Source: Escherichia coli (GTDB lineage Bacteria; Pseudomonadota; Gammaproteobacteria; Enterobacterales; Enterobacteriaceae). From it: a stretch of 64,000 bases of DNA. A program made the position numbers. The stretch lies in the NCBI RefSeq assembly GCF_029227855.1, contig NZ_CP074356.1. The stretch is one strand, 5' to 3'. How positions within the stretch are numbered: the first letter of the stretch is position 1; every line of letters starts with the position of its first letter. Below are positions 3,001 to 6,000 of the stretch, piece by piece.

Positions 3001-6000
3001 GCATTCCGAAAGGAATAACGCCGACGACGCACATCATTAAATTACCGATTGGCGAAATCAGGCAGCCCAATGCGACGCTCGATCTCAGCCAAAGCGTTGA
3101 TAATGAGTATTACTGTCTGCTGCTGGCGAAAGAACTTGGGTTGAATGTGCCGGACGCAGAAATCATTAAAGCGGGAAATGTGCGCGCGTTAGCGGTCGAA
3201 CGTTTTGACAGGCGTTGGAATGCTGAGCGAACGGTTTTACTTCGCTTGCCACAGGAGGATATGTGTCAGACATTCGGTTTACCTTCATCGGTGAAATATG
3301 AATCAGATGGAGGCCCAGGCATCGCGCGGATCATGGCTTTTTTGATGGGGTCCAGCGAGGCGCTGAAAGATCGCTATGATTTTATGAAGTTTCAGGTGTT
3401 CCAGTGGTTGATTGGCGCAACGGATGGCCATGCAAAAAACTTCTCCGTATTTATTCAGGCTGGCGGCAGTTATCGACTCACGCCATTTTACGACATCATT
3501 TCAGCATTTCCGGTATTGGGTGGCGCAGGAATACACATCAGCGATCTCAAACTGGCAATGGGGCTTAACGCATCCAAAGGCAAAAAAACGGCAATCGATA
3601 AAATTTATCCGCGACATTTTCTGGCGACAGCAAAGGTGCTGAAATTTCCGGAAGTGCAGATGCATGAAATCCTGAGTGACTTTGCCAGAATGATTCCGGC
3701 AGCACTGGATAACGTGAAGACTTCATTACCGACAGATTTTCCGGAGAACGTGGTGACGGCAGTTGAAACCAATGTGTTGAGGTTGCATGGACGGTTAAGC
3801 CGAGAATACGGTAGTAAGTGAGATATGGGGTTTGGTCGTTGTTAATGAGCACGACAATCATGACCGCCAACGACTGGATTCTTCCTTGGTTTATGCTGGT
3901 GCGCATAATGTATATTATGTTAAATGTGGTGGGTTTGTTCTTAAGTTCATGTGTTCCGCTCTTTCAGTAGCTTAACTGATGAATCAGTCAGCAGCTCTTG
4001 CCGTGCAAGCTACGCGGCGGTTCGTACCAGATTGGCCACCTCCATCTCCTGGTTCGCTTTCCCCTCCCCCCGGTAAACCTCACCCAACGTTAATTAATGA
4101 TGCCAGTATGTGGGCGCTATCCTTGTATGTAAAATCCACTGACGATTACGCCCATCTGTGAAAAAAAACTCACAATGCCATTCGATGCATCTCCATACTG
4201 AACGAGGCGTTATCGTCTTTATCGCCCCGTAGTGGATATCAGAAAATCAATCAGGGCCTTCACTCTTTTCGTTTTACCCGCGTTTTTGGGGTAATAGAGA
4301 TACACTGGCGGGTAGGTTTTCCAGTAGCTCTCCATCACCGGAATAAAGCGCTCCCTGTCCGGCTGTAACTGCCAGACAGGCTCAAACAAGCGCCCAATTC
4401 CCAGCCCGTTACGGATCCCGTCTGCCATAACGTCAATATCGTTGCTGATTAACTGCCCCGGCATCTCAACGGTCAACTGCTCACCGCGATCGTTCAGGAG
4501 CAGCGGAAGGATGCGGTTGTTGGTGATAAAACGGTAACCAATCAGCTGGTGATGACAGAGATCTGCCGGCACTTCAGGCGTTCCATGTCGGGAGAGATAC
4601 GCTGAGGATGCATATAATCCTTCTCGAAACGGTTTCATTAACGGTCGGGCCACCACCCCTCCCTCAAGAATATCGCCAAAACGGATCCCCAGATCAAAAC
4701 GCTCTTTGATGATATTCACGGTACCGTCGTAGACCGAAATTTCTAACTGTATACCCGGATATTGCTGACAGAATTCTGCCATCGCAGGCTTAAGAATTAA
4801 CAGGTAGGCAAAACGCGAGAGCGTAATTCGCACCATCCCAGAGGGCTCCTGATGCTGGTCGCGAATGCTTTCAAGCGAGTTTTCCAGCGACTCCACCGCC
4901 GCAGCGGTCTGTTCCAGCAATAATTGACCGGTTTCCGTCAGCTCTATACGGCGGGTCGTACGCACAAAAAGCGGATGGCCGATATACTCTTCCAGCAGCT
5001 TTAGTGCATTGCTGACGGAGGGAGGCGTAATTTCCAGTTTCCTTGCGGCTGCCGAAATATTGCCCTCCCGCGCAATGCTCTGGAAGATGCGAATCTGGTT
5101 ATAAAGAGCGTTATTCATAATGTTTTCCTAAGCAATTCTCGCCTGATTATTAAGTACAGTCTAAAAATACTTAAGTCAATGACCCTCTAATCTTCCTGAA
5201 ATACGCCTCTTATACTTTAGTCTCTTTCTACTACGACCTGAGTTCAGGAGACTATGATGCGAATTTTATGTCTGGATATCCCTGCCCCTGGAGCATCGCA
5301 TGACGATACATTAGCGCTGCAGAGTTCAGCGGCAGGCTCTGCCCAAAATGTCGGTATTCAAATTTTGGACCGTACGGGGGAGGTATTAATACTTGATGGT
5401 GCCACTTTTAGCGCTAAAACTGACTTGATTGATGGCACGAATATACTGCCGTTCCAGGCTCGTTATATTGCTCTCGGGCAGTCAGTAGCTGGTACTGCAA
5501 ACGCTGATGCGACCTTCAAAGTTCAATATCTATAATTCAATCTTAAGGTGGCTATACGTCATCTGAAATTGAAACAGGGTGTGTGTGGCATGGCTACGCA
5601 CACCCTAGCAACTCAGAAATGTGAATCTCATTATTAATGAGGAGTGGTTTGTATTTGGAGCGCTATGAAAAATCACATAATATCTAAACGATCAATAAAC
5701 AACAGTAGTTAAACTTACTGTTATTTAAAATATTTACTTTGTAGCAAGGTTTTCCTATTAAAAGAGAACCAACATTTATTACAAACGCATTAAGTCTGGA
5801 AACCCGGCGAGTCGCCAATGTATTAGCAACATTTACTGATTGTCTGATGTAACGGTTTTCCCGCTTATCCTCTTAACACATGGAGAATGCATCAGATGCA
5901 AACTACGCGTACCCCCTACTCTATTTCCTTTATGGCGACAGTGTTACTTTTATTGCTCTTTGCTTGCCATAGTACCGTTGCCAACGCAGCTGTCGCACTG

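What the first reader, a model, noticed from the sequence alone, without database searches (positions are those of the whole stretch)
5536..5886. 351-bp untranslated spacer with a GC-rich hairpin between the pilin remnant and the chaperone
A long AT-rich non-coding gap separates the pilin remnant from the chaperone gene and contains the stem gggtgtg ... cacaccc (5577-5605). Fimbrial operons often carry an attenuating hairpin after the major subunit gene to set subunit stoichiometry; alternatively the gap may be the remains of a deleted gene.
Basis: seen in the sequence. Interest (0 to 1): 0.25.

Follow-up and report, generated by a model that had tools for sequence, protein, structure and literature searches.

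The report
Conserved hairpin after F9 pilin gene
The long non-coding gap after the broken pilin gene is the normal pilin-to-chaperone spacer of the E. coli F9 (Fml/Yde) fimbrial operon. It starts with a strong, conserved RNA hairpin that most likely stabilises or attenuates the pilin message, which is ordinary for fimbrial operons rather than a new kind of element.

Summary
A non-coding, AT-rich gap (37% GC) separates the pilin remnant from the chaperone gene. The hairpin is larger than reported: a 14-bp stem at 5576-5606, dG -24.8 kcal/mol, the longest uninterrupted stem on the + strand of the window.

The gap is not specific to this strain. The same single-copy spacer, with no gene annotated in it, occurs in about 3,600 of 5,426 complete E. 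coli genomes, including strains with an intact major-subunit gene. "A gene was deleted here" is therefore refuted within E. coli.

On a longer timescale the gap does sit in the fimI slot. About 45 sister operons in other Enterobacterales have fimA-fimI-chaperone. The closest F9-like operons (Citrobacter sp. JGM124, Morganella morganii) also lack fimI and carry 451-478-nt AT-rich spacers. No FimI remnant is detectable.

Between two E. coli allele classes the middle of the spacer diverges at the synonymous-site rate. The hairpin plus the 30 nt upstream, and a block at 5776-5805, are almost invariant.

The hairpin has no U-tract, so it is not a classical terminator. It has no GGA motifs and no covariance-model match, so it is not a FimR2 family member.

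Best reading: a 3'-UTR stem-loop that protects the pilin mRNA and helps set expression polarity. This is inferred, not shown. Interest is low.

The parts
5254..5535 (+). Chimeric ORF, the 'pilin remnant'. Bases 5257-5299 are the 5' end of a hypothetical gene divergent from the LysR regulator. [quoted passage not shown]
   Evidence: Homology to intact fmlA starts at window 5300. The left part matches the LysR-adjacent gene in 450 genomes. Junction alignment. PGAP marks it as a pseudogene in the identical genome.
5536..5895 (+). Untranslated fmlA-to-chaperone spacer. It is 360 nt to the annotated start, or 351 nt to the first ATG at 5887.
   Evidence: Single copy and unannotated in 3,654 of 5,426 E. 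coli genomes. No conserved ORF. No Rfam match.
5546..5564 (+). Small upstream hairpin, AGGUGGC-UAUAC-GUCAUCU (7 bp, three of them G.U), inside the conserved block.
   Evidence: RNAalifold consensus. One G.U-to-A-U change is seen in two strains and one break in O157. Also predicted in the single-sequence folds.
5576..5606 (+). Main 14-bp GC-rich hairpin with an AUG loop. No U-tract follows it.
   Evidence: dG -24.8 kcal/mol, z = -4.6. Nearly invariant across alleles that are 81% identical overall. At least 95% identical in 3,535 of 3,590 genomes and always single copy. The terminator scan is negative.
5607..5775 (+). AT-rich interior (69-75% AT) that evolves at about the synonymous-site rate. 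Probably unconstrained filler and a substrate for RNase E, Rho or H-NS.
   Evidence: 22-27% divergence between allele classes, against 21-24% at third codon positions of the flanking genes. Composition.
5776..5805 (+). Second strongly conserved block, TTATTACAAACGCATTAAGTCTGGAAACCC. Function unknown.
   Evidence: 0-2 differences per 20-nt window between allele classes. No sigma-70-like promoter was called there.
5842..5897 (+). Predicted helix enclosing the chaperone ribosome-binding site. 5842-5851 pairs with 5888-5897. The SD GGAG at 5882-5885 pairs with CUCU at 5870-5873.
   Evidence: dG -16.7 kcal/mol, z = -2.2. An A-U to G-C change plus a U.G to U-A change keep the helix in the divergent allele class, which counts as one lineage.
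5896..6606 (+). F9 periplasmic chaperone gene. The usher, two minor subunits and the adhesin ydeQ/fmlH follow it, all intact.
   Evidence: 98-99% identical to the common E. coli protein cluster.

Best explanation
The region is the normal intercistronic 3'-UTR and spacer of the E. coli F9 (Fml/Yde) chaperone-usher operon. In an intact operon, the transcript from the f9 promoter runs through fmlA into this spacer.

The conserved 14-bp stem-loop lies 41-71 nt after the stop codon. It most likely acts at the RNA level as a barrier to 3'-to-5' exonucleases, and possibly as a weak pause or attenuation site. After endonucleolytic cleavage in the AU-rich, untranslated 290 nt that follow, the fmlA segment would outlive the distal chaperone and usher segments. 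That would give the large excess of major subunit that a fimbria needs. This is selective RNA processing and stabilisation, as described for pap, CFA/I and malEFG.

The rest of the spacer is largely unconstrained sequence that sits where sister operons carry fimI.

In this particular strain the native f9 promoter and the 5' 58% of fmlA (328 of 564 nt) are gone. The element is therefore probably vestigial here.

Shown: the hairpin, its strand bias, its conservation, the absence of a gene, and the family-wide presence of a post-pilin hairpin. Inferred: every mechanistic step (cleavage, stabilisation, polarity).
For: - The fold is stable and non-random.
- The + strand folds better than the - strand (-24.8 against -18.1 kcal/mol), because two G.U pairs become C.A mismatches.
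- The 60 nt at 5546-5605 show 2 differences between allele classes. The adjacent spacer differs at 22-27% and synonymous sites at 21-24%.
- The hairpin is at least 95% identical in 3,535 of 3,590 genomes.
- The spacer is present unchanged behind intact fmlA genes.
- Related operons nearly all carry a GC-rich hairpin shortly after the major-subunit stop codon, with compensatory changes.
- In E. coli fim, that element is processed by RNase E from the fimAICDFGH transcript (PMC9723502).
- Selective RNA processing and stabilisation is documented for the pap and CFA/I fimbrial operons, as listed in PMC4423207.
- c1936, c1935, ydeR and ydeQ change together in an APEC pst mutant. This implies read-through rather than full termination (PMC2648988).
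Against: - No transcript data exist for this spacer in the literature I could search.
- The stem shows no compensatory substitutions. It is almost invariant, so conservation could reflect a DNA-level or protein-binding role instead.
- Three natural variants weaken pairs rather than compensate: G5578U, G5598U, and U5606G in most strains.
- There is no U-tract, so termination is not supported.
- There is no C-rich, G-poor rut-like stretch to support Rho-dependent polarity.
Confidence: 0.55

Rival explanations
1. The conserved block 5546-5606 gives rise to a stable 3'-UTR-derived small RNA. It would be a functional analogue or diverged paralogue of FimR2 from the fimA 3'-UTR, released by RNase E and acting in trans.
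For: - It has the same position relative to the major-subunit stop codon as FimR2, which is K-12 b4838 at 11-45 nt after fimA.
- FimR2-like elements are conserved behind fimA-like genes across Enterobacterales and in the F9-like operons of Citrobacter (6.8 bits) and Morganella (9.4 bits).
- The E. coli F9 block is conserved beyond the hairpin itself. The 30 nt upstream, which would be a single-stranded seed, are also nearly invariant.
- The first ~14 nt after the stop codon are homologous to the fim-type operons.
Against: - The covariance model built from 27 FimR2-like elements gives the E. coli F9 spacer only 0.8 bits, which is noise.
- Both GGA motifs that define FimR2's CsrA binding are absent (PMC9723502).
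- Pairwise similarity to K-12 FimR2 is not significant, p about 0.14-0.4.
- No sRNA is annotated or reported here.
Confidence: 0.15
2. The spacer is simply the decayed scar of a lost fimI gene, and the hairpin has no function of its own.
For: - In about 45 sister operons, a roughly 180-aa FimI-like gene sits exactly between the major subunit and the chaperone.
- Two relatives show fimI in decay: Kluyvera genomosp. 3 (77.7 bits) and Yersinia massiliensis (12 bits).
- The interior of the spacer evolves at the neutral rate.
Against: - No FimI similarity is found in any frame. Scores are below zero and within the distribution of 300 shuffles, while the positive controls are detected.
- No DNA similarity to other genera extends beyond about 14 nt after the stop codon.
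- The hairpin and two other blocks are under clear constraint, which a pure scar would not be.
- The loss predates E. coli diversification and is shared with the Citrobacter and Morganella F9-like operons.
Confidence: 0.15
3. The spacer houses an internal promoter or regulatory region for the chaperone, usher and tip genes. Candidate elements are the conserved block 5776-5805, H-NS-bound AT-rich DNA, and the helix that occludes the ribosome-binding site. Under this reading the hairpin merely insulates the two units.
For: - A 30-nt invariant block lies 90-120 nt upstream of the chaperone start.
- AT content of 69-75% is typical of H-NS targets, and F9 is H-NS repressed (PMC3966885).
- A helix around the SD and start codon is kept by a compensatory change.
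- In this strain the downstream genes are all intact although the native promoter is deleted.
Against: - No sigma-70-like promoter is called in the spacer on either strand.
- Candidate hexamers found by eye are weak and not conserved in the divergent allele.
- The only mapped f9 transcription start lies 251 nt upstream of the major-subunit gene (PMC3966885).
- The helix has only modest thermodynamic support, z = -2.2 and -1.1.
Confidence: 0.1
4. The hairpin works on the - strand as a terminator that stops antisense transcription from the AT-rich spacer running into fmlA.
For: On the - strand the stem is followed by GUUUCAAUUUC, with 5 U in 8 nt starting one base after the stem. The - strand fold is still -18.1 kcal/mol, z = -2.9.
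Against: - Two C.A mismatches interrupt the - strand stem.
- The terminator scan does not call it.
- No conserved - strand ORF or promoter lies upstream of it.
Confidence: 0.05

Closest known systems
FimR2, the RNase E-processed sRNA from the fimA 3'-UTR (fimA-fimI intergenic region) of E. coli and Salmonella (Raad et al. 2022, PMC9723502; K-12 b4838)
   Same: Both are conserved hairpin-containing elements immediately downstream of the major-subunit gene of a gamma-1 chaperone-usher operon. F9 and type 1 fimbriae are paralogous operons. The closest F9-like operons (Citrobacter sp. JGM124, Morganella morganii) still carry a FimR2-like element at this place.
   Different: - The E. coli F9 element has no GGA motif in the single-stranded part or in the loop.
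- Its stem is 14 bp rather than 5 bp.
- It lies at +41 to +71 rather than +11 to +45.
- It scores as noise with a covariance model of the family.
Selective RNA processing and stabilisation in fimbrial and other operons (pap, CFA/I, malEFG), as listed in PMC4423207
   Same: There is a stable stem-loop at the 3' end of the cistron whose product is needed in large excess, followed by AU-rich untranslated RNA.
   Different: No processing site, half-life or abundance data exist for F9. The F9 hairpin is not a REP element, because it is single copy.
Rho-independent (intrinsic) terminator or attenuator
   Same: GC-rich stem-loop downstream of a stop codon.
   Different: No U-tract follows it: the sequence after the stem is AGCAACUC, and the scan is negative. 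Genes on both sides are co-regulated.
fimI (also focI, sfaD), the second pilin-like gene of gamma-1 fimbrial operons
   Same: The spacer occupies exactly the fimI position between the major subunit and the chaperone.
   Different: There is no coding capacity and no detectable sequence remnant. It is about 360 nt long, against about 640 nt for fimI plus its flanks.

Membership tests
Intrinsic (Rho-independent) terminator | GC-rich stem-loop | tested here: met
   14-bp stem, dG -24.8 kcal/mol.
Intrinsic (Rho-independent) terminator | U-rich tract immediately 3' of the stem | tested here: not met
   AGCAACUCAG follows the stem. No + strand terminator-like site was called in 5000-6100.
FimR2 sRNA (fimA 3'-UTR derived) | Located in the 3'-UTR just after the major-subunit stop codon of a gamma-1 fimbrial operon | tested here: met
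   The conserved block starts 11 nt after the stop codon and the hairpin spans 41-71 nt after it. FimR2 lies 11-45 nt after fimA.
FimR2 sRNA (fimA 3'-UTR derived) | Two GGA motifs, one single-stranded and one in the hairpin loop, for CsrA binding (PMC9723502) | tested here: not met
   There is no GGA in 5536-5612, and the loop is AUG. All 27 family members have GGA invariant in the single-stranded motif and 25 of 27 also have GGA in the hairpin loop.
FimR2 sRNA (fimA 3'-UTR derived) | Sequence and structure similarity to the family (covariance model) | tested here: not met
   Model R1 scores: Aeromonas 30.4 bits, Morganella 9.4, K-12 FimR2 7.7, Citrobacter 6.8, E. coli F9 spacer 0.8. Caveat: the model is only weakly sensitive even to the authentic K-12 FimR2.
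FimR2 sRNA (fimA 3'-UTR derived) | RNase E-dependent release and accumulation as a roughly 35-nt RNA | not testable with these tools
   This needs a northern blot or RNA-seq of an F9-expressing strain.
Intercistronic mRNA-stabilising stem-loop (selective RNA processing and stabilisation) | Stable stem-loop at the 3' end of the highly expressed upstream cistron, on the sense strand | tested here: met
   The + strand is favoured through its G.U pairs.
Intercistronic mRNA-stabilising stem-loop (selective RNA processing and stabilisation) | Endonucleolytic processing downstream, and a longer half-life for the upstream segment | not testable with these tools
   Only the composition can be checked: 69-75% AT and untranslated.
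REP/BIME or other dispersed palindromic repeat | Many copies per genome | tested here: not met
   Exactly one place per genome in 3,590 genomes. No Rfam match.
fimI pseudogene | Residual similarity to FimI-like proteins in some reading frame | tested here: not met
   A FimI HMM against the six-frame translation scores at most -1.7, within the shuffle distribution. The positive controls score 77.7 and 12.0 bits.

The most novel reading that the evidence does not exclude
The nearly invariant 60-nt block 5546-5606 (a small hairpin, a linker and the 14-bp hairpin) is a lineage-specific replacement of the ancestral FimR2-like CsrA-binding element. Under this reading it is an F9-derived 3'-UTR small RNA that has lost its GGA motifs and gained a much stronger stem, and so has a different partner or target set from FimR2.
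Probability: 0.15. Interest if true: 0.45.

Novelty: new member of a known kind. Interest (0 to 1): 0.2.

Why it matters
The direct value is modest.
- It explains an unusually long (360-nt) unannotated gap in a widespread E. coli adhesin operon.
- It shows that the F9-type operons lack fimI.
- It pinpoints three short conserved elements worth mutating when F9 expression is studied: the hairpin block, 5776-5805, and the helix around the chaperone ribosome-binding site.

For annotation, the gap should not be read as a deletion scar of this strain. The strain-specific lesion is the fusion at 5299/5300 that removed the f9 promoter and the 5' 58% of fmlA (328 of 564 nt).

If the hairpin block turned out to be an sRNA, it would extend the FimR2 idea, in which fimbrial 3'-UTRs act as regulators, to a second operon.

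Tried and rejected
- Rfam at permissive thresholds over 4000-7000 found nothing relevant. FimR2 itself is not in Rfam 15.
- Sigma-70 promoter and terminator scans found no site in the spacer.
- Small ORFs: ten candidates of 10 codons or more, none intact in all strains. They include a 15-codon ORF starting at the loop AUG and one at 5663 that is broken by a poly-A length change.
- FimI remnant search by tblastn and HMM was negative.
- DNA homology to about 78 operons of other genera, by blastn with word size 7 and by nhmmer, covers only the pilin 3' end plus about 14 nt.
- Homology of the spacer interior to the Citrobacter, Morganella and Aeromonas spacers was not detected. The Citrobacter and Morganella spacers do match each other.
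- Pairwise similarity of the hairpin region to K-12 FimR2 is not significant. Aeromonas L025 gave p = 0.004, uncorrected for 18 comparisons, so I treat it as suggestive only.
- A dispersed-repeat explanation is rejected.
- Rut-like C-rich, G-poor windows were not found.
- The literature search found no description of this spacer.
- Two covariance-model hits elsewhere in the window (34.6 and 35.2 kb) lie in dosP and ddpX and are chance.
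Full report
**Context.** The window around the finding is the E. coli F9 (Fml/Yde) chaperone-usher fimbrial locus between hipBA and ydeP. The layout is as follows:
- a LysR regulator at 4219-5118 on the - strand
- a 93-codon ORF at 5254-5535
- the gap
- the chaperone at 5887/5896-6606
- the usher at 6648-9299
- two minor subunits at 9313-9843 and 9856-10359
- the adhesin ydeQ/fmlH at 10418-11332
- ydeP from 11665

The window is 100% identical over the 901-nt query to E. coli JNEC-KY178. No other of 5,426 complete genomes covers 80% or more of that query.

**The observation.** The gap and the hairpin are real.
- From the stop codon (ending at 5535) to the first ATG of the chaperone ORF is 351 nt.
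- To the ATG at 5896 it is 360 nt. PGAP uses that start in all genomes I inspected, and it lies 10 nt after GGAG at 5882-5885.
- The stem is 14 bp, not 7: 5576-5589 pairs with 5593-5606, with an AUG loop and two G.U pairs. Its dG is -24.8 kcal/mol, z = -4.6, and 0 of 200 shuffles fold as well.
- The whole 351 nt also folds better than shuffles, z = -4.1.
- It is the longest uninterrupted stem on the + strand of the 64-kb window.
- On the - strand the two G.U pairs become C.A mismatches and the energy drops to -18.1 kcal/mol. This points to a sense-strand RNA element.
- No U-tract follows the stem, and the terminator scan is negative.

**Is a gene missing?** Within E. coli the answer is no.
- The spacer is single copy and present in 3,654 of 5,426 complete genomes.
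- It carries no annotated feature in any of the 40 records listed, apart from a 4-nt overlap in strain C1.
- Ten strains with an intact 564-nt major-subunit gene have the same 360-362-nt gap before the chaperone.
- No ORF in the spacer is preserved across strains.
- What is specific to this strain lies upstream. Homology to fmlA begins only at 5300. Bases 5257-5299 are the first 14 codons of a 103-aa hypothetical gene that lies next to the LysR gene in about 450 genomes. The two pieces are joined in frame without obvious microhomology.
- The mapped f9 promoter, 251 nt upstream of fmlA (PMC3966885), is therefore absent here.

**On a longer timescale the gap sits in the fimI slot.**
- I scanned one genome per species with the chaperone protein and parsed the 79 loci.
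- In about 45 operons of Klebsiella, Raoultella, Citrobacter, Kluyvera, Enterobacter, Serratia, Pantoea, Erwinia and others, the chaperone is 60-70% identical. Their order is major subunit, about 60 nt, a FimI-like gene of about 180 aa, about 30 nt, then the chaperone.
- The closest relatives of the E. coli F9 chaperone outside E. coli come from Citrobacter sp. JGM124 (75% identity) and Morganella morganii (71%).
- Where the contigs allow a check, these have the same gene order (six genes in Citrobacter). They have no fimI, and they carry 451- and 478-nt AT-rich spacers at 28-32% GC.
- The long spacer is thus characteristic of the F9-type operons, not an accident of one strain.
- A FimI profile finds nothing in the six-frame translations of the E. 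coli, Citrobacter or Morganella spacers. Scores are below zero and inside the shuffle distribution.
- The same profile does detect decaying fimI in Kluyvera genomosp. 3 (77.7 bits) and Yersinia massiliensis (12 bits).
- DNA similarity of the E. coli spacer to other genera ends about 14 nt after the stop codon. It is not detectable even against the Citrobacter and Morganella spacers.
- Whether the spacer descends from fimI therefore cannot be decided from sequence.

**What is conserved.** E. coli has two allele classes of this region that are 81% identical in the spacer.

| Region | Divergence between classes |
|---|---|
| Interior, 5607-5790 | 22-27% |
| Third codon positions, chaperone | 23.7% |
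| Third codon positions, fmlA | 20.8% |
| 5546-5605 (hairpin plus the 30 nt before it) | 2 changes in 60 nt |
| 5776-5805 | 0-2 per 20-nt window |

- The interior therefore looks unconstrained, while the last two regions stand out as conserved. The last ~30 nt before the start codon are also conserved.
- Diverged sequence flanks the hairpin block on both sides, so selection is a better explanation than a recent recombination patch.
- Across the population the hairpin is at least 95% identical in 3,535 of 3,590 genomes and always single copy.
- Because it hardly varies, there are no compensatory changes to prove pairing. The few variants weaken single pairs.

**A hairpin after the major-subunit gene is a family trait.**
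- Folding the 90 nt after the stop codon in 38 related operons shows a conserved element in nearly all of them. It is CA(A/G)GGA(N)GC, then 5-7 nt, then GGGCC-AGGAN-GGCCC. Its stem carries compensatory changes: GC to AU at two pairs in 4 sequences each, and the covariation score beats 500 of 500 shuffles.
- In E. coli K-12 this is the annotated sRNA FimR2 (b4838, 11-45 nt after fimA).
- FimR2 is an RNase E-processed, CsrA-binding, 3'-UTR-derived RNA. Its single-stranded region and its loop each carry a GGA (PMC9723502).
- I built a covariance model from 27 non-E. coli elements. Its scores:

| Sequence | Score (bits) |
|---|---|
| Aeromonas cavernicola operon | 30.4 |
| Morganella F9-like | 9.4 |
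| K-12 FimR2 | 7.7 |
| Citrobacter F9-like | 6.8 |
| E. coli F9 spacer | 0.8 (noise) |

- All the positive matches fall at the expected place.
- The E. coli F9 block contains no GGA at all.
- So the F9 hairpin occupies the same functional niche as FimR2 but fails the tests for membership. The Citrobacter and Morganella F9-like operons retain the FimR2-type element, while E. coli F9 has a different and much stronger stem.

**Mechanism.** The best-supported reading is an RNA-level 3'-UTR stem-loop. It would protect the fmlA message from 3' exonucleases after cleavage in the AU-rich, ribosome-free spacer, and it would contribute to polarity. The major subunit would then be made in large excess over the chaperone, usher and tip proteins.
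- This is the scheme documented for the pap and CFA/I fimbrial operons and for malEFG (listed in PMC4423207). It also resembles the RNase E processing seen at fimA.
- Full termination is unlikely. There is no U-tract, and c1936 (major subunit), c1935 (chaperone), ydeR and ydeQ fall together in an APEC pst mutant (PMC2648988).
- All of these mechanistic steps are inference. I found no transcript mapping of this spacer.
- In the strain of the window the operon has lost its promoter and most of fmlA. The element is therefore probably a passenger there.

**Rivals.** In order of credibility:
1. A FimR2-like trans-acting sRNA. The position fits and the flanking block is conserved, but the motifs are absent and the model does not match.
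2. A pure fimI scar. The position fits and the interior is neutral, but the conserved blocks argue against 'no function'.
3. An internal promoter or regulatory region. There is a conserved block at 5776-5805 and a helix around the ribosome-binding site, but no promoter-like site was called.
4. A - strand terminator, which has weak support.

**A further element.** RNAalifold on 12 E. coli spacers predicts that 5842-5851 pairs with 5888-5897. This encloses the chaperone SD and reaches the start codon. In the divergent allele class an A-U to G-C change and a U.G to U-A change preserve the helix. Thermodynamic support is modest (z = -2.2 and -1.1), and the changes represent one lineage. It is a lead, not a finding.

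**Verdict.** The 'attenuating hairpin' idea is reasonable if rephrased as a stabilising or polarity element. The 'deleted gene' idea is wrong for this strain and untestable for the deep past. This is a new example of a known kind of element. Interest is low.

Noticed in passing
window 5254-5535 (junction at 5299/5300): The 'pilin remnant' is an in-frame fusion. The first 14 codons of a LysR-adjacent 103-aa hypothetical gene are joined to the last 78 codons of fmlA. This deletes the f9 promoter and the island genes that other strains carry here. Only 1 of 5,426 complete genomes has this junction.
   Followed up: yes
window 5842-5897: A predicted 10-bp helix encloses the chaperone SD and start codon. 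A compensatory A-U to G-C change plus a U.G to U-A change keep it in the divergent allele class. It may occlude translation of the chaperone.
   Followed up: partly
window 5776-5805: A 30-nt block, TTATTACAAACGCATTAAGTCTGGAAACCC, is invariant or nearly so across allele classes that differ by about 25% around it. No function is assigned and no promoter was called.
   Followed up: partly
L010 (E. coli C1) 1501-1510; proteins P0003, P0016, P0023: The fmlA-to-chaperone interval is rearrangement-prone. In strain C1 an aldo/keto reductase gene abuts position 8 of the spacer. Many database proteins are in-frame fusions that delete the hairpin and most of the spacer. Examples are FmlA(1-130) joined to the spacer 3' end and the chaperone, and an NmrA-like protein joined to the chaperone.
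   Followed up: partly
L003, L091-L093 (E. coli EC42405 class): A second allele class of the spacer, about 81% identical to the common one, exists in about 19 genomes. It allowed the conservation analysis.
   Followed up: yes
L099:775-809, and the post-pilin regions of L012-L087, L025, L094 and L100: The FimR2 element (two GGA motifs plus the GGGCC/GGCCC hairpin) is conserved with compensatory changes behind fimA-like genes. It is seen in Klebsiella, Raoultella, Citrobacter, Kluyvera, Serratia, Yersinia, Morganella and one Aeromonas. It has no Rfam 15 family.
   Followed up: yes
L094-L096 (Citrobacter sp. JGM124-like) and L100-L102 (Morganella morganii): These F9-like operons are 71-75% identical in the chaperone. 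They share the gene order without fimI (six genes in Citrobacter) and have 451-478-nt AT-rich spacers. The Citrobacter copy lies next to genes encoding a PHO4-family and an HI0933-like protein, and the Morganella copy lies next to a transposase.
   Followed up: partly
L097:1-75: A Morganella-like metagenome contig begins with about 10 tandem CAGTAAG heptamers exactly at the pilin stop codon. The isolate sequence L100 has a single copy. This may be an assembly artefact or a variable repeat.
   Followed up: no
L085:2722-3108 and L040:2793-2928: Kluyvera genomosp. 3 and Yersinia massiliensis carry recognisable decayed fimI fragments between the major subunit and the chaperone. This shows that fimI loss is recurrent.
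   Followed up: partly
L011: A contig of a 'Candidatus Nanosynbacter' MAG is 99% identical to the E. coli F9 operon including the 351-nt spacer. It is almost certainly E. coli contamination of the bin.
   Followed up: no
window 5696-5727 and 5666-5670: There is an AT-rich inverted repeat, AACAGTAG-N6-CTTACTGTT, in the spacer interior. A poly-A run varies in length (5 or 6 A) between strains and breaks a 15-codon ORF.
   Followed up: no
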